Source: a virus (taxonomy: Duplodnaviria; Caudoviricetes). From it: a stretch of DNA of 64,000 nucleotides. The stretch covers positions 1 to 64,000 of IMG/VR virus record IMGVR_UViG_3300027874_000011. One strand, written 5' to 3'. Each line of letters opens with the position of its first letter. Position 1 is the stretch's first letter. Shown here one piece after another: positions 27,652 through 38,224 of the stretch. The position numbers were made by a program, and so were the translations under genes. The notes below the pieces were generated by a model. It ran no database searches. It worked only from the letters and a program-made list of their open reading frames with translations, and was not told where the DNA came from.

Positions 27652-27942
27652 TCAGTACCAGTCGCGTGAGCCTGGGTAGATCCCGCTCTCCATCATCTGG
27701 ACGCGGCGGTCAGCTTCCCTCTCGCGGTAGTCTTCCTCGTCCTGGCGCGTGACAACCCGTTTGCCGGAGCACTCGGGGCACGTCACGTCGTAGTCGCCGG
27801 CCATCATCGACTCGAAGCCGTCAGGGTCGTTGTCGCGGTCTTCGGCCGTCCAGACGCTGACGTACGGGTTGACGATGGAGCCATGCCCCTGGCACTTTGG
27901 GCAGACCCGATACTTCGGGCGACCCCGTTCTCGTTCTGACAT
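27652..27942 (-). CDS. DnaJ-type zinc-finger small protein
   Basis: CPKCQGHG and CPECSGKR motifs. Start set at ATG 27942 because the upstream ATG overlaps the -10 box. Confidence 0.65.
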   Translation of the reverse strand: MSERERGRPKYRVCPKCQGHGSIVNPYVSVWTAEDRDNDPDGFESMMAGDYDVTCPECSGKRVVTRQDEEDYREREADRRVQMMESGIYPGSRDWY

Positions 27943-27970
27943 GGGTGGTGGTGTCTCTCCTTCCGTGGAC

Positions 27971-28000
27971 ATTGTAACCGATTCTCGCACGTGAGCGCAC
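27971..28000 (-). promoter_or_regulatory. Promoter type P (GTGCGC-N4-GTGCGA-N8-TACAAT)
   Basis: Minus-strand sequence; spacing identical to six other sites. Confidence 0.65.
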
Positions 28001-28002
28001 AT

Positions 28003-28224
28003 TTACGTGAGGGCGACGATGCCCTCCTCGCGTAGCTGTTCGCGCAGTGCCAGCCGCAGCGCCTCGTGGCGGCTGAGGCCGTGGCGTCTGGCGTACACGA
28101 CCAGGCCGGCCATCAACGCGGGGTCGAGCCGCACGCTGACGACGCTCGGGTGCGCTCCCTGGGACGGCTGGCGAGGGCCGTCCACGATTGTCTCAGGGCG
28201 CACGATCTTGATCGGGCGTGTCAT
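28003..28224 (-). CDS. Ribbon-helix-helix (CopG/Arc-like) DNA-binding protein
   Basis: VVSVRLDPALMAGLVVYARRHGLSRHEALRLALREQL. Confidence 0.75.
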   Translation of the reverse strand: MTRPIKIVRPETIVDGPRQPSQGAHPSVVSVRLDPALMAGLVVYARRHGLSRHEALRLALREQLREEGIVALT

Positions 28225-30086
28225 CAGATCACCGGTCCGTCTTCGCGTCGGGCAGTGCGGATACGGCCCGCTCCTGGCGTCTCAGCCCGGTCCTGGCCGT
28301 CGCGCTGTTGCTGCCGCCGCCGCTGCTTCTCGCGCTCTGGCAGCAGCGACCAGATGTTGACCGAGCGTAGCGCGGCCTGCTCCTGGGCACGGATGGCGGG
28401 GTTGTCAGCCGGGATGATGTCTTCGATGGCGAAGCGCAGCGTCTCGATCAGATCGAGCGTCTCGTCTTCACTGCAGTCGCCGGTCGCCTGGGACACCGCG
28501 AACTCCAGATCCGAGCCGACCCAACCGTGGGTGGGCGCACCGAATTCGATCAGCGAGGCCACCGGCACGTCCGGGAACCCGTAGCGCGTCAGCAGCCGAC
28601 CCAGGATGTCTACCCGCTCCTCCTCCGTCTCGGGAGCCAGCAGCGCGGCCTTGATGTCGATGCGGCCCGTCCGCTTCATCGCCTCGGGTACCTGCTCAGG
28701 GTAGTTGCACGCCGCCATCAGGAAGATCCGACCCCGGTGCGACTCGTCACCGAGCCACTCCTGCAGCCGCTTCTGCATCGCCGCATCTACCGGGTGCTCG
28801 TCTTCGCCCTGTCCCGAGCCGAATGCTTTGTCGTACTCGTCAATGAACAGGAACGTTGGGGCGAACATCTCGGCACCCTCGATCAGCGTCTCCAGATTGC
28901 GCTCAGAGCTACCGACCCACTTCTCCTTCAAGACCTTGATCTCGATGGCGTTGACGCGCGTCTCTTTGGCGCACGCCACGGCAATGGCGCTCTTGCCCGT
29001 GCCTGGCGGTCCCGAGAGCAGCACGCCCATCGGTACACCCTTGGTGATGCCGCGCCGCATGCGCGAGATGACCTTGCGGTTCAGCACGTCTTTGAGACGG
29101 ACGTTGCCGCCGATGCCCTCGAAGCCGAACGATGGCTCCAGACGCTTGAGCACCGAGCCGTAGCGCACGTCGAGTAGCTCTTGCCCACGCTCCAGGGCCA
29201 GCCGCCGCGTGAGTGGCTGATCGCCCGCCCGCAGCGTAATGTCTTCGATGTCCCGCCGGTTCTGGCCCGCCGTGATCGCGGCGAACTCCTCAGCGGTGAA
29301 CGCCGGATCCCACCTGAGCCACGGCTTGAGGTCAATCAGGTCACGGATGAACTGCAGCCGCTCGGCCGTGTCTGGCAGCGGCACCCGAATTGGCCGCAGG
29401 CCCGACGCCTTGACGACATCCTCGTGGACCTCAGATGCCGACCGAGCCAGGAACACGATGGGGTTCTGCGCGAACTCCAGATCCGTGTCCGTCGAGGCTT
29501 CCTCGACCATCTCAAGGATCAGCCCGCGCTCCGGGGTGATCGCGTTCTTGTCAGCCGCCGGGATCATGATGTCGGCCCGCGCGATGATGACCGCCGCGCT
29601 ACCCGCACCACCTGGCACGACTGGCCCCGAGTGAGGGTCGTCGGGGTCGTTGTAGCGAGCCTTTTTCAGGAAGTCCAGGGCGAGGCGCAGCATCGCACTT
29701 GGCTCCGTGGGAAGCGGGAAATCGTCTGGATGCGCCTCAGACCACAGGTCGCCTTGCGTCAGCGCTGCGCGCTCGTCAGGGTCTGATGGTAGCTCGAAGC
29801 CCATCGTGGCCTCGAACAGACGCCGCATCCTGGGATTGGGGAAGGTGATCTTGTTGCCGTGGATGGTCAAGACCACATCGCGCCGGGGGTGCTCCTGCGT
29901 CCCCATGAACTGACCCTCGATCCATTCTTGGACCGGCCAGCCCGGGAACACGAAGTCGAAGATGTTCCCCGTCACGAGGAACATGTGCGACTCGCCCCTG
30001 GCGAAACGCTGCCGCAGGGTATCGAACCACTGTGGCGCGAGCCGCTCTGCGTCCAGAGCGTTGATAACGGTTTCGATGGCGGACAC
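28224..30086 (-). CDS. AAA+ ATPase (Ycf46/CDC48-like clade)
   Basis: Walker A GPPGTGKS, Walker B LFIDEYDK, SRH AACNYPEQVPEAMKRTGRID. N-terminal degenerate AAA-like region. GGAGG RBS. Confidence 0.92.
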   Translation of the reverse strand: MSAIETVINALDAERLAPQWFDTLRQRFARGESHMFLVTGNIFDFVFPGWPVQEWIEGQFMGTQEHPRRDVVLTIHGNKITFPNPRMRRLFEATMGFELPSDPDERAALTQGDLWSEAHPDDFPLPTEPSAMLRLALDFLKKARYNDPDDPHSGPVVPGGAGSAAVIIARADIMIPAADKNAITPERGLILEMVEEASTDTDLEFAQNPIVFLARSASEVHEDVVKASGLRPIRVPLPDTAERLQFIRDLIDLKPWLRWDPAFTAEEFAAITAGQNRRDIEDITLRAGDQPLTRRLALERGQELLDVRYGSVLKRLEPSFGFEGIGGNVRLKDVLNRKVISRMRRGITKGVPMGVLLSGPPGTGKSAIAVACAKETRVNAIEIKVLKEKWVGSSERNLETLIEGAEMFAPTFLFIDEYDKAFGSGQGEDEHPVDAAMQKRLQEWLGDESHRGRIFLMAACNYPEQVPEAMKRTGRIDIKAALLAPETEEERVDILGRLLTRYGFPDVPVASLIEFGAPTHGWVGSDLEFAVSQATGDCSEDETLDLIETLRFAIEDIIPADNPAIRAQEQAALRSVNIWSLLPEREKQRRRQQQRDGQDRAETPGAGRIRTARREDGPVI

Positions 30087-30115
30087 TCAAACCCTCCTTT
30101 GGTTTGTACAAGAGC

Positions 30116-30145
30116 ATTCTAACGTGTAATCGCACAAGTGCGCAA
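30116..30145 (-). promoter_or_regulatory. Promoter type P (TTGCGC-N4-GTGCGA-N8-TAGAAT)
   Basis: Upstream of the AAA+ ATPase start; sigma70-like -35/-10 with 18-nt spacer. Confidence 0.75.
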
Positions 30146-30148
30146 CAT

Positions 30149-30406
30149 TTAGCCAACGCGGGTGACCCAGGTCGTAGAACCATCGTTCCAGTCGAAGATC
30201 TCCACGAACGAGTACGCCTTGGAGTGGCGGCGCAGATGGCGGTAGTTGGACTGCACCCAGGTCAGGATCTCGGCCAGCGTCTCGGCCTCGAACAGCATGG
30301 CTGGCTCGGGGTCGAAGTAGCCCTTCTCGCCGTGCCGCTGGTGGTCGTGGTGCCACTGGTAGGCCGCGTACCGGCTGGTAACCGGCTCGCGGCCACAGGC
30401 GACCAT
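30149..30406 (-). CDS. Small hypothetical protein
   Basis: 85 aa, coupled TGATG start. Confidence 0.55.
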   Translation of the reverse strand: MVACGREPVTSRYAAYQWHHDHQRHGEKGYFDPEPAMLFEAETLAEILTWVQSNYRHLRRHSKAYSFVEIFDWNDGSTTWVTRVG

Positions 30407-30651
30407 CAGTCGCCCGCGTCTTTGCGGACAGCCGAGATCAGGATGCGACCGTCGCCCAGGCCCCCGACCTTCAGTTCGTAGCTCATCAGGTAGGCCACGT
30501 CCTGGGGGTTGCCCAGGCCGGAGATGGTGACCGAGCCACCCTCATCCAGCGCGATCTTGATGAGCAGCAGCGTCTTGAGCACCTGGGCGTTGTCGATCTC
30601 CACCATGCCGCGCGGCACGCGGCCGTCCGAGTCCACGTATTCGATGGGCAT
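30406..30651 (-). CDS. Small hypothetical protein
   Basis: 81 aa, operon-packed. Confidence 0.55.
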   Translation of the reverse strand: MPIEYVDSDGRVPRGMVEIDNAQVLKTLLLIKIALDEGGSVTISGLGNPQDVAYLMSYELKVGGLGDGRILISAVRKDAGD

Positions 30652-30654
30652 GGC

Positions 30655-33165
30655 CTAATGGTCCACCACAATCGTCGTCCGAATCAGCGGCAGGTTGGTG
30701 TCGCCCATCAGCGTGGCGCGCACCCAGGTCGGGCGCTCGCGCGGCGTGTCGCGGTACAGGATGCGGTTGTGGGCGCGCCGCCACCAGCAGTGCTTGCGCT
30801 CGAAGTCGCGCCCAGGCCCAGGGGCTTCCGAGCGCGCGGGCTTCGGCTCGGGCGCGCGCAGATGGATCACGAACGCGCCCAGGTCGTCGGGGATCGGGTG
30901 GTGGAACGGCTTGATGTTGCGCTCCACCTCGCGCCTGACGGCTCGATGCGCGCGGATGTGGGGCGTCTCGGTGTACTTGGAATTCAAGAAGCTGAGCCGC
31001 TTGAGCAGAAACTCGATCAGGCTGTGCTCCTCACCCTTGGCGATGTCCGGCCAGCGCGCACCGTAGGGCACGATGGCTCCGGTCAGCATGACCGTGCCGT
31101 CGCGCTTGTTGTCGTCGGCCAGCGGGCACCACACCTCGTAGCCGCGTGCCGTCTCCAGCACCAGCATCCAGTCGATGCGCGCCTCGGGCGCACCCATCGC
31201 CGCCTCGAAGCTCCAGAACATGGCCGGGTGGGGTGCCAGGCCGCGTGTGACGTGGTGGGCGGGCAGATCCGGCTCGTCGGCCAACTCATCCACCTTGGAG
31301 GTCCACAGGTACGGCACCGAGTCGTGCAGCCCGTGGGTGAGGTACAGGCCCATCGCCTCGGCCATCGTCGGGTCGTCCCAATGACGGGCGATGAACGGGT
31401 CGAAGCGCATCGAGCCGTACTTGCCCTCGGTGCCCGGGATGCCGAGCGAGGTGGCTGCGGCCAGCGTCATGCCGTACTTTTCGGCCAGCGCGTGCCACGC
31501 CTCGGTGTTGCGCCACAGCCCGTTGCGGGCCTGCTCGGAGTGGATGTGCTGCATGTAGCGCTCCAGCAGCGGATGCCGCTGGTAGCCCGCCGCGATCTGG
31601 CGGCGCTCCAGGGATTGATGCACGGCCTCGTCGCCCTCGGCCACCAGGCGCAGGTTGCCCTGCTCGTCCTCGACCATCATGGCGACCTCGCCAGTAGCAC
31701 GGACGCGCGCGGCCAGATCCGGCGGCGCGTCGGGGTGGTCGGCGGACATGACCTCGATGCGCCCGTCGTGGTTGCGCACGCCCGCTCGCCGCTCGGCTCG
31801 CTCCACGTCGGTCGCCAGCTTCTGCAGCCGCGCGCCCTCGTTCTCGCGGTAGTCCACCCGCACCCGCGCGCCCGACCGATGGCGGAAGAACTGGTTGTGC
31901 AGGCGGATGCCCCACGGCCGTACGAGGTCGTGGAATTTCCTGGGCTTGCTGCGCAGGTAGCGGTTGACCAGGCTCATGCGGTCGTTGCTCTCGATGGACA
32001 TGGCGCAGCGCTCGCACGCCGCCCACGCGCCAGCCGAGCGGTAGTCTTCGCCGTTCGGCGTGTCGAGCACGAAGTCGTCGCACGGGTATTCCCACGCCGG
32101 CTCGTCGGAGTTGCAGAAGTCGCAGCGGCCCTCGGCGGCATCCTCGATGCTGTTCGGTCGGAAGCTCGACATCAGGTCGGTGAATTCCGCCCGCCCATCC
32201 GGGTAGCGCTTGAGCAGCGCGAAGGCGTCTGCGCTGAACTGCGCCTCCTGCTCGGTGAACGCCTTGCCCTTGTAGCCCTTGCGCCGCGCGATGGCCGTGG
32301 TCGCCGCCGCGAAGTCTTTCATGTTCATCGGGCCGTTCTTCTGGCGCATCGCGGCCAGTTCCTCGGCGGCTTGCTCCAAAACGCGCGAGCGCTCGGACGA
32401 CTCGTTGGCCGCATCGACGGCGGTCGTCAGCTTGCGAGCCTGCTCGTCGCTCAGATCCGAGTGGTCGTGCTCGGCGTGGTCGGCGGGAGCCGTCTGCGCG
32501 GTATCGCGAACGAACGTTCGCAGGATGCCATCGACGCTGATCTTGCCACCCTGCCTGGTTGTCTCCTGGCGGGGTCGGCCGTACATCTCCGCGATGACCT
32601 TCGAGATGGGGTCGTTGTCAGCCGGCGGGTAGGCGTAAGTGAATTCACGGTCGCCCAGGCCGGAGGCGACCATCTCGTTGAACGTCTTCTGCATGTCCCA
32701 CCCGCGCCGCTTGCCGAACTGGATGGCAAGCTTGGCCTCCGGGTCGCGCGTGGTCAGCAGCATGCGGCGGTCTTTGTCGTCTTCGATCTCCAGCGTGAGC
32801 GGCTCGCCGTCGTCGGGGATCTTGCTCTGGACGCCAGCCTCGCGCTCGCGCTTCATCTCCTCGGGGATGAAGTCGGCCAGCTTGCTGACGTTCCACGTGG
32901 CTGACTCGCGGTAGCCGTCTTTGACGAAGTGGGGGTCGCTGGTGACCACCGTCACGTCGCGCTCGCCCAGGCCGGCCTCGACCAGGCGGTCGAGCGTCTC
33001 GGGGAGTAGCTCACCTTTGTGGTAGCTGTCGTCAAAGATCTTGATGATCTCCGAGTCGCCCGTCTCGATTATGGTGTCGTCACGGCGGCTGTCGTGGCCG
33101 CGATGGTCGGCGGACTTGTGCCCGCCGATCTCGGCCGAGAAGCGGTAGCGTCGGCGCTTTGCCAT
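30655..33165 (-). CDS. Large multidomain hypothetical protein (836 aa)
   Basis: ATG 33165 overlaps the radical SAM stop. Internal CDFC...WAACERC Zn-like domain. C-terminal HCWWRRAHNR...PTWVRATLMG motif. Confidence 0.75.
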   Translation of the reverse strand: MAKRRRYRFSAEIGGHKSADHRGHDSRRDDTIIETGDSEIIKIFDDSYHKGELLPETLDRLVEAGLGERDVTVVTSDPHFVKDGYRESATWNVSKLADFIPEEMKREREAGVQSKIPDDGEPLTLEIEDDKDRRMLLTTRDPEAKLAIQFGKRRGWDMQKTFNEMVASGLGDREFTYAYPPADNDPISKVIAEMYGRPRQETTRQGGKISVDGILRTFVRDTAQTAPADHAEHDHSDLSDEQARKLTTAVDAANESSERSRVLEQAAEELAAMRQKNGPMNMKDFAAATTAIARRKGYKGKAFTEQEAQFSADAFALLKRYPDGRAEFTDLMSSFRPNSIEDAAEGRCDFCNSDEPAWEYPCDDFVLDTPNGEDYRSAGAWAACERCAMSIESNDRMSLVNRYLRSKPRKFHDLVRPWGIRLHNQFFRHRSGARVRVDYRENEGARLQKLATDVERAERRAGVRNHDGRIEVMSADHPDAPPDLAARVRATGEVAMMVEDEQGNLRLVAEGDEAVHQSLERRQIAAGYQRHPLLERYMQHIHSEQARNGLWRNTEAWHALAEKYGMTLAAATSLGIPGTEGKYGSMRFDPFIARHWDDPTMAEAMGLYLTHGLHDSVPYLWTSKVDELADEPDLPAHHVTRGLAPHPAMFWSFEAAMGAPEARIDWMLVLETARGYEVWCPLADDNKRDGTVMLTGAIVPYGARWPDIAKGEEHSLIEFLLKRLSFLNSKYTETPHIRAHRAVRREVERNIKPFHHPIPDDLGAFVIHLRAPEPKPARSEAPGPGRDFERKHCWWRRAHNRILYRDTPRERPTWVRATLMGDTNLPLIRTTIVVDH

Positions 33166-33860
33166 CAGGCCGCGACCTCGACTTCCTCCCACAGCACCAC
33201 CTGACCGGTGGCGCGCGTGGCGCGCATGTCGATCACCCGCTGGTTGCCTGAGCCGGTCCACGGCCCCGCGCCGCCTGAGAGCGCCATGACGTACGGACCG
33301 TCGATCAGCACGTCGATCTGATCGAGCACATGCTGGACATCAGGCCCACGCCGGTTGAGCGCTTCGTAGGTGAAGCCCGAGTAGACCAGAATGTGGACAT
33401 CAGGCTCCCTGGCGCGTAGCTGCGAGACGAGCCACGACAGCGCTTCCGGCTGCGCGAACGGCTCGCCGCCCAGGATGGTCACCCCGTCGTGCGGCTCCTC
33501 CAGCAGCGACTTGGCAACGTCCACGACCGGCACGTCCGTGCCAGCCTCGAAGTCCCACGTCTCGGGCACGTAGCACCCCTGGCAGCGAATCGGGCACCCC
33601 TGCATCCGCACGACCGAGCGTCGGCCCGGTCCCTCGATCAGCGATTGGTGCCAGACGCCAGAGATGCGCAGCACTGGCCCGGTGCCAGTGACGGACGGAA
33701 GGCTCATCCCGTTAGTCGGCCGCGCGCACGCGAGGCCCTCTGGCGCACCGAGCAGGCTCGCCAGGTCAGCACCGATCTCGGAGGCGATCTCCGAGTCAGT
33801 GCTCTCGACCAGCAGGTTCCCGGCCTCCTCGTCTAACAGAGCGAGAAGGATCTCGGGCAC
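33165..33860 (-). CDS. Radical SAM protein, NrdG-like '4Fe-4S single cluster' family
   Basis: CPIRCQGC (CxxxCxxC), GVTILGGEPF, YSGFTYE, DVLIDGPY, GSGNQRVID. Confidence 0.88.
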   Translation of the reverse strand: MPEILLALLDEEAGNLLVESTDSEIASEIGADLASLLGAPEGLACARPTNGMSLPSVTGTGPVLRISGVWHQSLIEGPGRRSVVRMQGCPIRCQGCYVPETWDFEAGTDVPVVDVAKSLLEEPHDGVTILGGEPFAQPEALSWLVSQLRAREPDVHILVYSGFTYEALNRRGPDVQHVLDQIDVLIDGPYVMALSGGAGPWTGSGNQRVIDMRATRATGQVVLWEEVEVAA

Positions 33861-33862
33861 GG

Positions 33863-34075
33863 CTACTTCCTCCGCTGCGCTTGCCGCTGCGCCTGAGCGG
33901 GAGCCTTGACGACTTCCTTCTCGGTCAGTTCAGCCTTCTCGACGGTCTTCGCATCGCCGCCCAGGTCCGCGAGGTCTTTGTCGAAGTCAGACTGCAGCTT
34001 GTGCATCGACTTCGGGCCTTTGAACGACACGCTCATGCCGCCGTTCTCGTCTACTTCAAAGGTGATGGTGGGCAC
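33863..34075 (-). CDS. DUF2997-like small protein
   Basis: TITFEVDENGGMSVSFKG...DLG pattern and adjacency to a DUF1257-like gene. The usual Cys after the KG motif is absent. Confidence 0.6.
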   Translation of the reverse strand: MPTITFEVDENGGMSVSFKGPKSMHKLQSDFDKDLADLGGDAKTVEKAELTEKEVVKAPAQAQRQAQRRK

Positions 34076-34114
34076 TGAATTCTCCTTGTGTCCTGAAAGA
34101 GGAGGGCTGGCGTC

Positions 34115-34594
34115 CTAGTAGGACACCAGCACCCGGGTTGCACCATTGACCGTCTGCTTGCGCACGGTCGCGTTCGCGGGGATCTTGCCGAGCGCCTTGA
34201 GGCGCGGGATGGTCTTCGTCAGCACGGTCTTGATGGCCGTGTCGCCATTGACCTTGGCGTACGCCGACTGGATGGCGTCTTCGATCTTGACGGCCTTTGG
34301 ACCACCCTTGGGGTCCGCGACCATCGCCGGAATGTGACCATCGGTCAGCATCGTGTACGACCCGTCAGCGGTCTTCGCGAAGCCCACGTCCACGTAGGAG
34401 TAGGTACCGATGCGCGAGAACTCTGACTTGGGGATCACGATCTCGGCTGACTGCTTGTTGTCGTAGTTGTAGTAGCCCGACAGCCGGTGGGCCTTGTCGT
34501 ACACCTGGGCCTGGAGGCCGAGGGTCGCGATGGCCGCGAGCAGCACCTCTTTGTTGCGAATGCCGCTCAATGCGTAGGACGTGTAGGTGGACAG
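34115..34594 (-). CDS. DUF1257 (Ycf35-like) protein, probable CTG start
   Basis: STYT...IRNKEVLLAAIATLG...LSGYY...AEIVI...DVGF...GSYTMLTD matches the family pattern. GGAGG RBS 8 nt before CTG 34594. Confidence 0.75.
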   Translation of the reverse strand: MSTYTSYALSGIRNKEVLLAAIATLGLQAQVYDKAHRLSGYYNYDNKQSAEIVIPKSEFSRIGTYSYVDVGFAKTADGSYTMLTDGHIPAMVADPKGGPKAVKIEDAIQSAYAKVNGDTAIKTVLTKTIPRLKALGKIPANATVRKQTVNGATRVLVSY

Positions 34595-34644
34595 GGGATC
34601 ACCCTCCTCTCTTGGTTTCGCCGTTCCTTCTTCGGCTTGATTCA

Positions 34645-34674
34645 ATTCTAACGGACGTTCGCACGGATGCGCAA
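34645..34674 (-). promoter_or_regulatory. Promoter type P (TTGCGC-N4-GTGCGA-N8-TAGAAT)
   Basis: Heads the DUF1257 operon. Confidence 0.75.
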
Positions 34675-36997: not shown

Positions 36998-38161
36998 TTA
37001 CTCCTCCATGACCGCCACGACGGTGCCGCGTCCGGCGTACTTGTCCTTGGCCGCGTCGAGCGCTGACTGGATGTCTGAGGCCAGAACGCGGTCCTGCACC
37101 TCGGTCATGCGCACCTTGACGGTGAAGAACTTGCTGCCGGGTGGCAGTGGCGTGGCGGCTGTCTCGGTGGTGTTGTTGGTGGTGGGGCTGGTGCTGTCGG
37201 TAATCACGAACTGAACGGGGGCCTCCGTGGGGGCATTGGGCGACTTGGCAGGCGTTGCCACGGCGATCTCGCTTTCGGTGGTTTCGATGGTGACGGGCGG
37301 CTCGACCGGAGCCGGGGTCGGGGCCAATTCGATCATTGGCGTCTTGATCCAGGGTTGCTTGGGGTTGCGTACTTCGATGGAGAACCGAATGCCTGCCGCC
37401 ACCGCTGCCTCGGAGGTGCATACCTCCTCGACTCGCGCCTTGGGCATGTGCGTCCACTGCGATACGTGATACGCAGGGATCGGCCCCGGGTTGCGCTGCA
37501 AGTGCTGCACGACCCGCTGAATCCAGTACTCCTCGGGCACCCGCTCAGACACGACGTTCCAGACCGTTCCTGGCACGGTGTTGTACGTCGCGGCGATGTC
37601 ATTGACGGGTTCGCCCGTTCGCCATAGCTCGACTATTTCCTCCTGTTCGTTGTCGGGGATCTCAGGGGCTTTCATCCGACGCGGGGCGGGGATGATGCGC
37701 GCCTGTTGTTCTTCGCGCGGCATCTCACCCTCTTGGGGTGAGGTGTCTTCTGAGGTGAGCGTGCCGGGCACACCCCAAGCGTCGAGGTCAGCCTGCGTCT
37801 CGGCACGTTCGTCCGAGATGACGGCCACTCCATTGGCTACTTCTTCAGGCACTTCTTCGACTTCGGCTTCGACTTCTTCCGCTCGCTGACGTTCGACCTC
37901 GGCCATCACCCGCCGGGCTGCCTCCCAATCGCGTTTGGTGTACGGCTCGTAGTCGCGCAAAAAGCTCTGGCGGTCCGAGCGATGTGTTCCGCTGGCCTTG
38001 CCCTGCGACATGCCAGGCTTCTCCTGTACGTAGAACACGGCGATGGGTGTCGTCTTCTTGACCTTGCATATCTGCCCCGGGTGTGGCGCGGTGATCTTGA
38101 TCCAGCGTGTCCCGCCGGGAATGTTGACAACCGGCGCGTGGGATAAATCTTCGTCGGCCAC
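36998..38161 (-). CDS. Multidomain protein with central HTH; C-terminus paralogous to 62199-62669
   Basis: EQEEIVELWRTGEPVNDIAATYNTVPGTVWNVV HTH; C-terminal VLASDIQSALDAAK. AAAGGAG RBS. Confidence 0.65.
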   Translation of the reverse strand: MADEDLSHAPVVNIPGGTRWIKITAPHPGQICKVKKTTPIAVFYVQEKPGMSQGKASGTHRSDRQSFLRDYEPYTKRDWEAARRVMAEVERQRAEEVEAEVEEVPEEVANGVAVISDERAETQADLDAWGVPGTLTSEDTSPQEGEMPREEQQARIIPAPRRMKAPEIPDNEQEEIVELWRTGEPVNDIAATYNTVPGTVWNVVSERVPEEYWIQRVVQHLQRNPGPIPAYHVSQWTHMPKARVEEVCTSEAAVAAGIRFSIEVRNPKQPWIKTPMIELAPTPAPVEPPVTIETTESEIAVATPAKSPNAPTEAPVQFVITDSTSPTTNNTTETAATPLPPGSKFFTVKVRMTEVQDRVLASDIQSALDAAKDKYAGRGTVVAVMEE

Positions 38162-38194: not shown

Positions 38195-38224
38195 GTTATA
38201 GCACGGCCTCGCACGGATACGCAA
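38195..38224 (-). promoter_or_regulatory. Promoter type P (TTGCGT-N4-GTGCGA-N8-TATAAC)
   Basis: In the divergent intergenic region; TG extended -10. Confidence 0.75.

What the first reader, a model, noticed from the sequence alone, without database searches (positions are those of the whole stretch)
28003..34674. Phage-encoded DUF1257 / DUF2997 / radical SAM / 836-aa orphan / AAA+ ATPase module
Seen: a co-oriented, tightly coupled cluster driven by two copies of the phage's own promoter type. Order: DUF1257-like, DUF2997-like, NrdG-like radical SAM (intact CxxxCxxC and GGEP), 836-aa multidomain orphan (ATG overlaps the radical SAM stop), two small ORFs, AAA+ ATPase, RHH regulator. Established: DUF1257 (Ycf35), DUF2997 and a Ycf46-like AAA+ ATPase form a conserved, functionally uncharacterised gene neighbourhood in bacteria and plastids. 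NrdG-type activases normally act on a glycyl-radical enzyme, and none is present in this window. Inference: the phage carries a complete radical-SAM plus AAA+ remodelling machine whose substrate may be the 836-aa protein or a host protein, possibly for host takeover or counter-defence. This is the best candidate for an undescribed system here.
Basis: partly seen in the sequence, partly recalled or inferred. Interest (0 to 1): 0.8.

Follow-up and report, generated by a model that had tools for sequence, protein, structure and literature searches.

The report
Phage AAA+/DUF1257/DUF2997/radical-SAM module
An uncultured high-GC soil phage carries a tightly packed, self-promoted gene block that joins a protein-unfolding ATPase, two small proteins of unknown function and a radical enzyme of the kind that normally switches on a partner enzyme, yet no such partner enzyme is found, so the block probably does something not yet described.

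Summary
All eight minus-strand ORFs exist and are tightly coupled, including a TGATG overlap between the radical SAM gene and the 836-aa gene. An exact 30-nt promoter/operator-like motif occurs twice.

- **Confirmed directly:** the radical SAM enzyme (Fer4_12; best family NrdG, below its cut-off), the AAA+ ATPase and the RHH protein.
- **DUF1257:** missed by the Pfam model but proven transitively. Of the 81 profile hits scanned plus the window's own protein, 63 of 82 are Pfam DUF1257.
- **DUF2997:** supported only weakly.

In 27 other viral loci with DUF1257, an AAA+ gene lies nearby in 26 and DUF2997 in 21. An NrdG-like radical SAM gene is present in 3, always just downstream of the pair. No NrdD or glycyl-radical domain was found in this record or in those three, two of which are complete genomes.

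The 836-aa protein is confined to this phage clade (12 homologues). It has a hypervariable N-part, a zinc-ribbon module that stands alone beside the radical SAM gene in another phage, and a conserved C-domain. An AcrVA2-like lead for that domain failed every alignment test. The "RLSGY" glycyl-radical idea is not supported.

Function remains unknown. This scan has already noted the four-gene core on other DNA (142 notes, at least 91 genomes).

The parts
34645..34674 (-). Promoter/operator-like motif P1 (TTGCGC, an 18-nt spacer holding a half-palindrome TGCGA, then TAGAAT), upstream of the DUF1257-like gene
   Evidence: Exact 30-nt match. Three matches at <=3 mismatches in the window against 0 expected. 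Kept upstream of the homologous gene in 8 of 9 related metagenome loci.
34115..34594 (-). DUF1257 (Ycf35-family) protein, 159 aa, divergent subfamily with a C-terminal extension. Probable CTG start 8 nt after AGGAGG.
   Evidence: No direct Pfam hit. The profile search reaches 83 proteins. Of 82 sequences scanned, 63 are Pfam DUF1257. Alignment; start region.
33863..34075 (-). DUF2997-like small protein, 70 aa. It lacks the family's Cys; a two-residue gap sits at that site.
   Evidence: No Pfam hit. Custom phage DUF2997 profile gives 6.7-15.7 bits, aligned end to end. hhalign P 0.004-0.05. Its position directly after DUF1257 matches Pfam-confirmed pairs in phages L338C and HJ05.
33165..33860 (-). 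Glycyl-radical-enzyme-activase-type radical SAM protein (NrdG-like), 231 aa, with a roughly 65-aa N-terminal extension
   Evidence: Fer4_12 1.2e-31. TIGR02491 NrdG 114.5 bits, cut-off 126.1. phrog_626 3.2e-30. Nearest solved structure is PFL-AE 3C8F, 2.8e-8. CxxxCxxC and GGEP present.
32131..33165 (-). 836-aa protein, residues 1-345: hypervariable N-part with two copies of a roughly 33-aa DPxV...GLGxR unit
   Evidence: Alignment A2. The unit occurs 0-3 times, and the zinc ribbon begins at residue 34 to 829 in 13 sequences of the family, one of them a repeat of another.
31846..32130 (-). 836-aa protein, residues about 346-440: zinc-ribbon module (CxxC...W.YPC...W.AC..C...HNQFFRHR.G)
   Evidence: Invariant Cys, Trp and Gly. 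The same module is a stand-alone 104-aa ORF between DUF2997 and the radical SAM gene in L219 (1.3e-12). Stand-alone relatives occur in Actinomycetota.
30655..31845 (-). 836-aa protein, residues about 441-836: conserved His/Arg/Trp-rich C-terminal domain without any detectable family
   Evidence: No Pfam, PHROG, NCBIfam, PADLOC or PDB match. Only 12 homologues found. Atlas lead to AcrVA2-like at 0.90. Alignment tests were negative.
30406..30651 (-). 81-aa ORF of unknown function
   Evidence: ORF. ORFs of like size stand at the same place in L002, and the matching stretch of L009 is open in one frame. No family hit.
30149..30406 (-). 85-aa ORF of unknown function, one-base overlap with the 81-aa ORF
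   Evidence: No family hit.
30116..30145 (-). Promoter/operator-like motif P2, upstream of the AAA+ gene
   Evidence: Exact match. A copy with one mismatch stands before the AAA+ gene of L009.
28224..30086 (-). Classical-clade AAA+ ATPase, 620 aa, with a single AAA domain at residues 355-479
   Evidence: PF00004 1.5e-25. Best solved relatives are Cdc48/p97/VAT, 2e-43. GPPGTGKS, FIDEYD, KWVG and RTGRID are seen in the translation. hhalign 99.9% over residues 205-577 to 27 phage AAA+ proteins that neighbour DUF1257.
28003..28224 (-). Ribbon-helix-helix protein, 73 aa, probable regulator
   Evidence: RHH_1 1.2e-7, 31.9 bits against a cut-off of 20.5. One-base overlap with the AAA+ stop.
27971..28000 (-). 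Degenerate third copy of the promoter-like motif (3 mismatches)

Best explanation
This is a phage-borne, self-regulated variant of a recurrent four-gene core that I found described in no paper. The core is a Cdc48/FtsH-type AAA+ unfoldase, DUF1257, DUF2997 and a glycyl-radical-activase-type radical SAM enzyme.

Shown:
- The families are present, tightly coupled, and sit behind two copies of one promoter/operator motif, with an RHH gene at the end.
- The core recurs in unrelated viral contigs.
- No NrdD or glycyl-radical-domain match was found.

Inferred:
- The radical SAM enzyme does not serve ribonucleotide reduction. It abstracts a hydrogen from, or otherwise radically modifies, a protein partner inside the module.
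- The AAA+ ATPase, with DUF1257 and DUF2997 as adaptor or scaffold subunits, unfolds or remodels that partner or its target.
- In this clade a specificity or effector subunit has been added: the 836-aa protein. Its zinc-ribbon module is the likely docking site for the radical SAM enzyme. Its hypervariable N-part with variable repeat number likely engages a host or rival-element target during early infection.
For: - Family identities.
- Coupling and promoters.
- Synteny is kept in relatives whose DUF1257-like protein is 65-90% identical, while the large protein has diverged to 44-70%.
- Survey of 27 further viral DUF1257 loci with home-made HMMs at E<=1e-3: AAA+ 26/27, DUF2997 21/27, radical SAM 3/27. 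The radical SAM gene lies 0.4-2.1 kb downstream of DUF1257 and is confirmed as Fer4_12.
- In whole-record searches these are the only Fer4_12 genes above cut-off in the 27 records (3 of 27).
- NrdD: 0 of 4 records. Gly_radical: 0 of 4. Two of the records are 100% complete.
- All four module radical SAM proteins that I scanned hit glycyl-radical activase models best, and all fall below the NrdG equivalog cut-off (69.5-114.5 against 126.1 bits).
- The zinc-ribbon module stands alone between DUF2997 and the radical SAM gene in L219.
- Pfam DUF1257 was found in 0 of 401 sampled Actinomycetota genomes, so the module is not a copy of a gene from the host phylum I assume.
Against: - Only 3 of 27 DUF1257 loci carry the radical SAM gene, so the trio works without it.
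- The window's radical SAM is 30-34% identical to those three. That is not more than to ordinary phage NrdG (best listed 37.9%), so common descent of the linkage is unproven.
- The 836-aa protein occurs only in this clade.
- Zinc-ribbon relatives in 6 Actinomycetota loci have no radical SAM, AAA+, DUF1257 or DUF2997 gene in the stretch fetched (4 to 9 kb to either side).
- No shared C-terminal tail links the ATPase to other ORFs.
- No substrate glycine could be pinned down.
- No structure could be predicted, and there are no expression data.
- The record is 81% complete and the host is unknown.
Confidence: 0.4

Rival explanations
1. Mosaic, not machine. The AAA+/DUF1257/DUF2997 trio is one unit of unknown role that is common in phages. 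The radical SAM gene, the 836-aa gene and the two small ORFs are unrelated accessory cargo inserted into it and merely co-transcribed.
For: - The radical SAM gene is absent from 24 of 27 trio loci.
- In phages L338C and HJ05 the trio stands beside replication genes without it.
- The large protein is clade-specific.
- An extra coiled-coil ORF sits between DUF2997-like and the radical SAM gene in L001, L005, L008 and L009 but not in the window.
- The window's radical SAM shows no special kinship with those of L216, L217 and L219.
Against: - Whenever a Fer4_12 gene above cut-off exists in the 27 records, it lies in the module (3 of 3).
- No cognate glycyl-radical enzyme was found.
- Start/stop overlaps join the genes, and a shared promoter motif brackets the block.
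- The zinc-ribbon module recurs beside the radical SAM gene in L219.
- Earlier notes of this scan report the four-gene core in many genomes. These are unchecked leads.
Confidence: 0.25
2. The radical SAM protein is a true NrdG. The phage carries it as an auxiliary metabolic gene to activate the host's class III ribonucleotide reductase under anoxia. Its neighbours are irrelevant.
For: - Best family is NrdG, 114.5 bits, near the 126.1 cut-off.
- phrog_626, 'anaerobic ribonucleotide reductase small subunit', 3.2e-30.
- 31-38% identity to phage NrdG among the listed hits.
- Intact cluster and SAM motifs.
- NrdD is present in 73 of 301 sampled Actinomycetota genomes.
Against: - No NrdD in this record, nor in two complete phage genomes with the same arrangement.
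- Among the 40 listed rows, several annotated phage NrdG genes have NrdD under or beside the match. This one sits between DUF2997-like and an unknown gene with overlapping codons.
- It scores below the equivalog cut-off and has a roughly 65-aa N-terminal extension.
- Every NrdD-positive genome listed is 1.3-3.9 Mb. The host of this 65% GC soil phage is unknown.
Confidence: 0.15
3. The 836-aa protein is an AcrVA2/FinQ-type anti-defence protein. Its variable N-part recognises a target polypeptide, and its conserved C-domain triggers loss of the target's mRNA. It acts on its own.
For: - Atlas features for homologue P0020: the three best clusters score 0.90, share 185-188 of 256 features, and are actinobacterial 422-434-aa proteins of which 22-49% carry PF26125. 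24 of 30 hits fall in that set.
- The family architecture (variable N, conserved C) matches what the AcrVA2 preprint reports (10.1101/2022.11.29.518452, sections 5, 7 and 8 read).
- Seen by eye, in the same order as in AcrVA2 relatives: WRNT, FDP, LL..L.[FY]L.S...P.I, and H..RRAH against HxRRAH.
Against: - No alignment statistic supports it: hhalign against phage Y11 AcrVA2 P 0.22; my 67-sequence AcrVA2 HMM gave negative scores; hhalign P 0.077 and 0.21; against two actinobacterial AcrVA2-like ORFs P 0.13.
- phrog_6160 found nothing, but it also rang in none of the controls.
- The PDB profile search did not find 7CI1.
- Shuffled proteins reach 0.9 in the Atlas 4-10 times in 100, by the tool's own text.
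- Motifs picked by eye are prone to bias.
Confidence: 0.2

Closest known systems
Cyanobacterial and plastid Ycf35 (DUF1257) / DUF2997 / Ycf46-type AAA+ neighbourhood
   Same: - DUF1257 membership is shown transitively.
- The N-terminal M/L-S-x-Y start resembles the 'MSH' start of Ycf35 noted in PMC13060386 (passages read).
- A DUF2997-type small ORF follows, and a single-domain AAA+ with a long N-region lies in the same operon.
- Cyanobacteria pair DUF2997 and ycf35 with ferredoxin fed7 (PMC4284462, passage read).
   Different: - It is phage-borne and both small proteins are too diverged for the Pfam models.
- DUF2997-like lacks the Cys.
- A radical SAM enzyme and an 836-aa protein are inserted between the pair and the ATPase.
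- I compared the ATPase only with phage relatives, not with Ycf46 itself.
- The function of the cellular neighbourhood is unknown too.
AAA+ / DUF1257 / DUF2997 block of cultured phages (Rhizobium phage vB_RleS_L338C, Aeromonas phage HJ05)
   Same: These are the best database matches of the ATPase (29-32% identity over the AAA core). There the AAA+ gene is followed by Pfam-confirmed DUF1257 (4.8e-9, 2.4e-8) and DUF2997 (2.5e-5, 1.4e-8).
   Different: - The order there is AAA, an unknown gene, DUF1257, DUF2997. Here it is DUF1257, DUF2997, four further genes, then AAA.
- There is no radical SAM gene in those loci.
- The genes are annotated only as hypothetical or 'AAA+ family ATPase'.
NrdG / PFL-AE: activases of glycyl radical enzymes (TIGR02491; PDB 3C8F/3CB8)
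   Same: Fer4_12 fold signature, CxxxCxxC, GGEP and the GSGNQRVID end. The best model hits are all glycyl-radical activases.
   Different: - Below the NrdG equivalog cut-off (114.5 against 126.1 bits).
- An extra roughly 65-aa N-terminus.
- No NrdD, PFL-type or Gly_radical match in the record.
- Embedded in an AAA+/DUF module.
AcrVA2 / FinQ family (PDB 7CI1; Pfam PF26125, which is not in the library at hand)
   Same: Variable N-part and conserved C-part; a basic His/Arg motif near the C-terminus; carried on a mobile element; Atlas lead at 0.90.
   Different: No significant sequence or profile similarity in six tests. The C-domain here is about 400 aa and is preceded by a zinc ribbon. Membership is not established.
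Cdc48/p97/VAT and FtsH-type classical AAA+ unfoldases
   Same: Walker A and B, a KWVG pore loop, second region of homology. Best solved matches 2e-43 to 1e-38.
   Different: It has one AAA domain only, no protease domain, and an unrelated 340-aa N-region. Of that region, residues 205-354 align only with phage relatives.

Membership tests
DUF1257 (PF06868, Ycf35) | Match to the Pfam model above its gathering score | tested here: not met
   No hit at E<=0.1. No candidate in the whole record at E<=10.
DUF1257 (PF06868, Ycf35) | Homology by profile search through intermediate sequences | tested here: met
   The profile of 15 homologues finds 83 proteins at E<=1e-3. Of 82 scanned sequences, 63 are Pfam DUF1257 at E<=1e-3. 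Atlas gives three DUF1257 clusters at 0.89.
DUF1257 (PF06868, Ycf35) | Family motifs: N-terminal M-S start, L.GY.G, IVIR, D.GF, DG.Y | tested here: met
   Alignments. The 'MSH' start is described in PMC13060386.
DUF2997 (PF11211) | Match to the Pfam model | tested here: not met
DUF2997 (PF11211) | Similarity to a phage DUF2997 profile over the whole length, and position directly after DUF1257 | tested here: inconclusive
   6.7-15.7 bits, E 3.8e-6 to 2.4e-3 for 7 sequences. It does not reach E<=0.01 in the full ORF set. hhalign P 0.004-0.05. The position is as in Pfam-confirmed pairs.
DUF2997 (PF11211) | Conserved G..G..C site | tested here: not met
   The profile column 'GFhGkeC' aligns to 'GP--KSIH'. 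There is no Cys in any of the 7 clade members.
Glycyl-radical-enzyme activase / NrdG (TIGR02491) | Radical SAM CxxxCxxC cluster motif and GGEP SAM-binding motif | tested here: met
   CPIRCQGC and GGEP in the translation. Fer4_12 1.2e-31.
Glycyl-radical-enzyme activase / NrdG (TIGR02491) | Score above the curated equivalog cut-off | tested here: not met
   114.5 bits against 126.1. Relatives score L009 110.7, L219 88, L217 81.9, L216 69.5.
Glycyl-radical-enzyme activase / NrdG (TIGR02491) | A cognate glycyl radical enzyme (NrdD or other) encoded with it | tested here: not met
   PF13597: 0 of 4 records. PF01228: 0 of 4. The own record is only 81% complete. A host enzyme is not excluded.
Glycyl-radical-enzyme activase / NrdG (TIGR02491) | Generates a glycyl radical on a protein | not testable with these tools
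   Needs anaerobic biochemistry and EPR.
Classical AAA+ (PF00004) | Walker A, Walker B, pore loop, arginine fingers | tested here: met
   PF00004 1.5e-25. GPPGTGKS, FIDEYD, KWVG and RTGRID in the translation. Cdc48/p97 matches.
Ycf46-type AAA+ | Homology to Ycf46 beyond the AAA core | not tested
   No Ycf46 sequence was at hand. Against 27 phage AAA+ proteins that neighbour DUF1257, hhalign gives 99.9% over residues 205-577; the first 200 residues are unmatched.
AcrVA2-like (PF26125; phrog_6160) | Match to a family model or profile | tested here: not met
   PF26125 is not in the library. phrog_6160 gave no match, and its controls were silent too. My own HMM gave negative scores. hhalign P 0.077-0.22.
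AcrVA2-like (PF26125; phrog_6160) | C-terminal H-x-R-x-x-H residues needed for activity (H286, R288, H291; preprint section 5) | tested here: inconclusive
   The protein has H792-C-W-W-R796-R797-A-H799, each conserved in at least 90% of the 10 aligned sequences. It fits H-x-R-R-A-H only with a two-residue insertion. This is an alignment by eye.
Ribbon-helix-helix (PF01402) | Match above the gathering score | tested here: met
   31.9 bits against 20.5.

The most novel reading that the evidence does not exclude
The glycyl-radical-activase-type enzyme of this module has a protein substrate that is not a classical glycyl radical enzyme. It installs a radical, or a radical-derived modification, on a small zinc-ribbon module. 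That module is fused here to a hypervariable targeting protein and is free-standing in other phages. The DUF1257/DUF2997/AAA+ unfoldase loads, resets or delivers this armed protein. Together they would be a new kind of phage weapon or switch that acts on host or rival proteins early in infection.
Probability: 0.15. Interest if true: 0.9.

Novelty: new variant of a known kind. Interest (0 to 1): 0.66.

Why it matters
Activases of the NrdG/PFL-AE type are known only as partners of glycyl radical enzymes. Here one sits in phage genomes in which no glycyl radical enzyme was found, two of them complete. It is always inside a block with a protein unfoldase and two families (Ycf35/DUF1257 and DUF2997) whose function has been open since plastid genomes were first sequenced.

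If the parts work together, this offers an experimental handle on both questions:
- what DUF1257 and DUF2997 do;
- what else this radical SAM class can act on.

The phage version adds a fast-evolving large protein that may name the target. The module has its own promoters and a probable repressor, so it can be moved as one unit into a laboratory host.

Tried and rejected
- **Close relatives of the region.** None in the phage collection by DNA, and none in IMG/VR for the 836-aa protein, the DUF1257-like family, the radical SAM or the AAA+. None in genome contigs for the DUF1257-like family. tblastn of the DUF1257-like protein against phages found nothing at E<=10.
- **Glycyl-radical site in DUF1257.** Rejected.
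- **The 836-aa protein as a divergent glycyl radical enzyme.** No NRDD, Gly_radical or other Pfam hit in any of 10 family members at E<=1, and no PDB hit of note.
- **QueE / 7-deazaguanine pathway.** QueE models hit far more weakly than NrdG, and there is no QueC in the record. QueD, FolE and DpdA were not searched.
- **AcrVA2 link.** Six alignment tests were negative. phrog_6160 was silent, controls included. A search of 401 Actinomycetota genomes with phage Y11 AcrVA2 gave two weak matches. I read one and it was spurious; the other held two stop codons. With a 26-sequence AcrVA2 alignment, 1 of 401 genomes matched. Those two ORFs did not bridge to the orphan. tblastn of one of them against phages found nothing.
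- **Orphan profile against 401 Actinomycetota genomes.** 4 genomes matched. Four of the five matches cover only the zinc ribbon; the fifth has three stop codons.
- **Shared C-terminal 'address tail'** (lead from earlier notes e1-4729569 and e1-3982366). Only the ATPase itself ends in ...DGPVI. I compared the tails of the other module proteins by eye only.
- **PADLOC.** Only generic AAA similarity to IetA and TRIP13.
- **Literature.** 'DUF1257' or 'DUF2997' appears in 5 papers (4 listed), none on phages or radical SAM. 'Ycf46' with 'phage' appears in 4 papers, none relevant by title or abstract. 'Ycf35' appears in 41 papers; the 15 listed are organelle or cyanobacterial by title. Supplements were not opened.
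- **Not done.** No phylogeny of the radical SAM proteins, no expression data (look-up of sequencing runs and read laying unused), and no comparison with cyanobacterial Ycf46.

Full report
**What the window is.** It is the first 64 kb of a 72,120-nt IMG/VR virus record, estimated 81% complete. GC content is about 65% and there are no tRNAs. Large plus-strand genes fill the left 25 kb. From about 25.4 to 38.2 kb the long ORFs are on the minus strand. The finding lies in that minus-strand block.

**Observation.** One search shows the eight co-oriented ORFs at the stated places.
- The radical SAM stop and the 836-aa ATG overlap as TGATG.
- The 81/85-aa pair and the AAA/RHH pair each overlap by one base, and the other gaps are 2-3 nt, apart from two longer spacers: about 40 nt between the DUF1257-like and DUF2997-like genes and 62 nt before the AAA+ gene (coordinates).
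- Pfam confirms Fer4_12 (1.2e-31), AAA (1.5e-25) and RHH_1 (1.2e-7).
- CPIRCQGC and GGEP are in the radical SAM translation.
- The two promoter copies are real. TTGCGCA-N4-TGCGA-N6-GTTAGAAT occurs exactly at 34645-34674 and at 30116-30145. A 3-mismatch copy lies at 27971-28000. None is expected by chance.
- The motif is kept before the DUF1257-like gene in 8 of 9 related metagenome loci and before the AAA+ gene of L009.
- The motif reads as a -35 TTGCGC and a -10 TAGAAT, 18 nt apart, with a half-palindrome between. That fits an operator for the RHH protein encoded at the end of the block. This last point is inference.

**DUF1257 and DUF2997.** The criterion turns out to be too strict.

For DUF1257:
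- A profile of 15 close homologues was searched against 1.84 billion representatives. It found 83 proteins at E<=1e-3, aligned from their first residues.
- I scanned 82 sequences (81 of these hits plus the window protein). 63 are Pfam DUF1257 at E<=1e-3.
- The Atlas lead agrees at 0.89.
- hhalign to two single phage DUF1257 proteins was only suggestive (P 2e-4 to 5e-4).
- The protein belongs to a roughly 159-aa subfamily with a C-terminal extension.

For DUF2997:
- The evidence is weaker. A 24-sequence phage DUF2997 profile that I built aligns the seven clade members end to end at 6.7-15.7 bits.
- The family's Cys site is missing there.
- Size and position match Pfam-confirmed pairs.

**The trio is a common phage block.** The best database matches of the ATPase are Rhizobium phage L338C and Aeromonas phage HJ05. 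In both, the ATPase is followed by an unknown gene, a Pfam-confirmed DUF1257, a Pfam-confirmed DUF2997 and then replication genes.

I used five more distant DUF1257 proteins as bait and fetched 27 further IMG/VR loci. I scanned their six-frame ORFs with home-made HMMs at E<=1e-3.
- AAA+ on the same strand within the flank: 26 of 27.
- DUF2997: 21 of 27.
- NrdG-like radical SAM: 3 of 27 (L216, L217, L219).

The window's ATPase aligns to these ATPases at 99.9% probability over residues 205-577.

**The radical SAM link.** In L216, L217 and L219 the radical SAM gene lies 2.1, 0.4 and 0.7 kb downstream of DUF1257, after DUF2997.
- Pfam confirms Fer4_12 for all three.
- A search of the 27 whole records finds no other Fer4_12 gene above cut-off (3 of 27; one sub-threshold hit of 15.1 bits).
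- Where these phages have such an enzyme, it is in the module.
- None of the four records has a match to NRDD or to Gly_radical. Two of them are 100% complete.
- All four module radical SAM proteins scanned hit glycyl-radical activase models best and fall below the NrdG equivalog cut-off. The nearest solved structure is PFL-AE.

Against a single origin of the linkage:
- The window's enzyme is 30-34% identical to the three others, which are 44-45% alike among themselves.
- That is no more than its 31-38% identity to ordinary phage NrdG among the listed hits.
- The linkage may be ancient, or it may have arisen twice. Either would argue for function, but I made no tree.

On the host:
- NrdD occurs in 73 of 301 sampled Actinomycetota genomes, so a host target cannot be excluded.
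- Pfam DUF1257 was found in 0 of 401 sampled Actinomycetota genomes.
- That the host is an actinobacterium is my inference. It rests on GC content and on zinc-ribbon relatives in that phylum.

**The 836-aa protein.** It has no Pfam, PHROG, NCBIfam, PADLOC or PDB match. Only 12 homologues were found among 5.8 billion clustered proteins, ranging from 527 to 1303 aa. It diverges faster (44-70% identity) than the neighbouring DUF1257-like protein (65-90%).

It has three parts:
- **N-part.** Its length varies from 34 to 829 residues, with 0-3 copies of a roughly 33-aa DPxV...GLGxR unit.
- **Zinc-ribbon module.** About 95 aa with invariant Cys, Trp and one Gly.
- **C-domain.** About 400 aa, rich in invariant His, Arg and Trp.

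The zinc-ribbon module is an independent unit.
- It is a stand-alone 104-aa ORF between DUF2997 and the radical SAM gene in L219 (1.3e-12).
- Stand-alone or differently fused relatives occur in Actinomycetota genomes and Streptomyces plasmids.
- In those 6 loci there is no radical SAM, AAA+, DUF1257 or DUF2997 gene in the stretch fetched, 4 to 9 kb to either side.

For the C-domain, the Atlas points to AcrVA2-like actinobacterial proteins at 0.90. The family's variable-N, conserved-C layout matches the AcrVA2 preprint (sections 5, 7 and 8 read). I see colinear short motifs by eye. Every alignment statistic is nevertheless negative, and phrog_6160 was uninformative. I therefore keep this only as a rival at 0.2.

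**The glycyl-radical motif lead.**
- The Arg varies among the 15 close homologues.
- L-x-G-Y-x-G is a general DUF1257 motif.
- The Gly is Asp in 8 of the 13 nearest outgroup proteins aligned, and in the DUF1257 of L219, which has the enzyme.
- I reject the idea.

One curiosity remains. In L217 a 79-aa Cys-rich ORF overlaps the radical SAM start by four bases and ends in T-R-M-A-G-Y-A-P. This is a single sequence and may be chance.

**Mechanism.** What is shown is anatomy and recurrence.
- My best reading (0.4) is a functional unit. The activase-type enzyme acts on a module protein, and the classical-clade AAA+ unfoldase, with DUF1257 and DUF2997 as accessory subunits, remodels that protein or its target. 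The unfoldase carries Walker A and B, a KWVG pore loop and Cdc48/p97 as nearest solved relatives. The clade-specific large protein supplies specificity.
- The main rival (0.25) is a mosaic of unrelated cargo.
- A true NrdG acting on host NrdD follows (0.15).

The cyanobacterial pairing of DUF2997 and ycf35 with ferredoxin fed7 (PMC4284462, passage read) hints at an Fe-S or electron-transfer theme shared with a radical SAM partner. That is speculation.

**Novelty.**
- I found no paper on the phage block or on a radical-SAM-linked DUF1257/DUF2997 module.
- This scan has already noted AAA/DUF1257/DUF2997/radical SAM modules 142 times in at least 91 genomes on other DNA. These are unchecked notes.
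- My own survey confirms the recurrence only for 3 of 27 viral loci plus this clade.
- This instance adds a phage setting with its own promoter/operator pair and RHH gene, a DUF2997 without Cys, and a fused zinc-ribbon/hypervariable large protein.

**Limits.**
- The survey HMMs were home-made from few sequences.
- The loci came from pattern scans that favour certain lineages.
- The record is incomplete and the host is unknown.

Noticed in passing
window 34592-34608: The DUF1257-like gene seems to start at CTG (34594-34592), 8 nt after AGGAGG. Homologues start with M, L or V at the same residue. The upstream TTG listed as the ORF start lies inside the -10 box of the promoter-like motif.
   Followed up: partly
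window 27971-28000 and 38195-38224: Weaker copies (3 and 4 mismatches) of the promoter/operator-like 30-mer. One lies just after the RHH gene, inside the 5' end of the listed 116-aa ORF, whose true start is therefore probably further downstream. The other lies upstream of the 387-aa ORF 36998-38161.
   Followed up: no
window 27652-28002 (-): A 116-aa ORF with two CxxCxGxG-like knuckles (weak DnaJ central-domain and Anti-TRAP hits, all below their cut-offs) follows the RHH gene directly. It may belong to the same regulon.
   Followed up: no
L217:10608-10847: A 79-aa Cys-rich ORF lies between DUF2997 and the radical SAM gene, overlapping the latter's start by 4 nt. It ends in T-R-M-A-G-Y-A-P, which resembles the glycyl-radical motif R-V-x-G-Y. 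It is a single sequence.
   Followed up: partly
L001:2129-2347, L005:1019-1219, L008:1459-1659, L009:5207-5407: An extra 67-73-aa coiled-coil-like ORF is inserted between the DUF2997-like and radical SAM genes in some close relatives but not in the window.
   Followed up: no
L136, L137, L138, L140, L143, L144 (Actinomycetota genomes and Streptomyces plasmids): A zinc-ribbon family (CxxC...W.YP...W.AC..C..L[IV]E..DR, then F-[RW]-x-x-R-x-G) exists as small stand-alone proteins and inside larger ones. I found no name for it in Pfam.
   Followed up: partly
L216:13074-14138 and L219:11672-12607: A 311-354-aa protein follows the radical SAM gene in two loci. It gave a weak DUF3150 hit, 1.3e-3, below cut-off, in L216 only.
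   Followed up: no
Actinomycetota genomes (G062, G077, G091, G133, G212, G251, G238): Short open frames of 89-167 aa match only the last roughly 30 positions of the NRDD model, apart from the full-length gene. They may be GrcA-like spare-part glycyl radical proteins.
   Followed up: no
L217:7025-7705 and L218:7433-9759: The AAA+ gene next to DUF1257 appears truncated or split into two frames in these two viral contigs.
   Followed up: no
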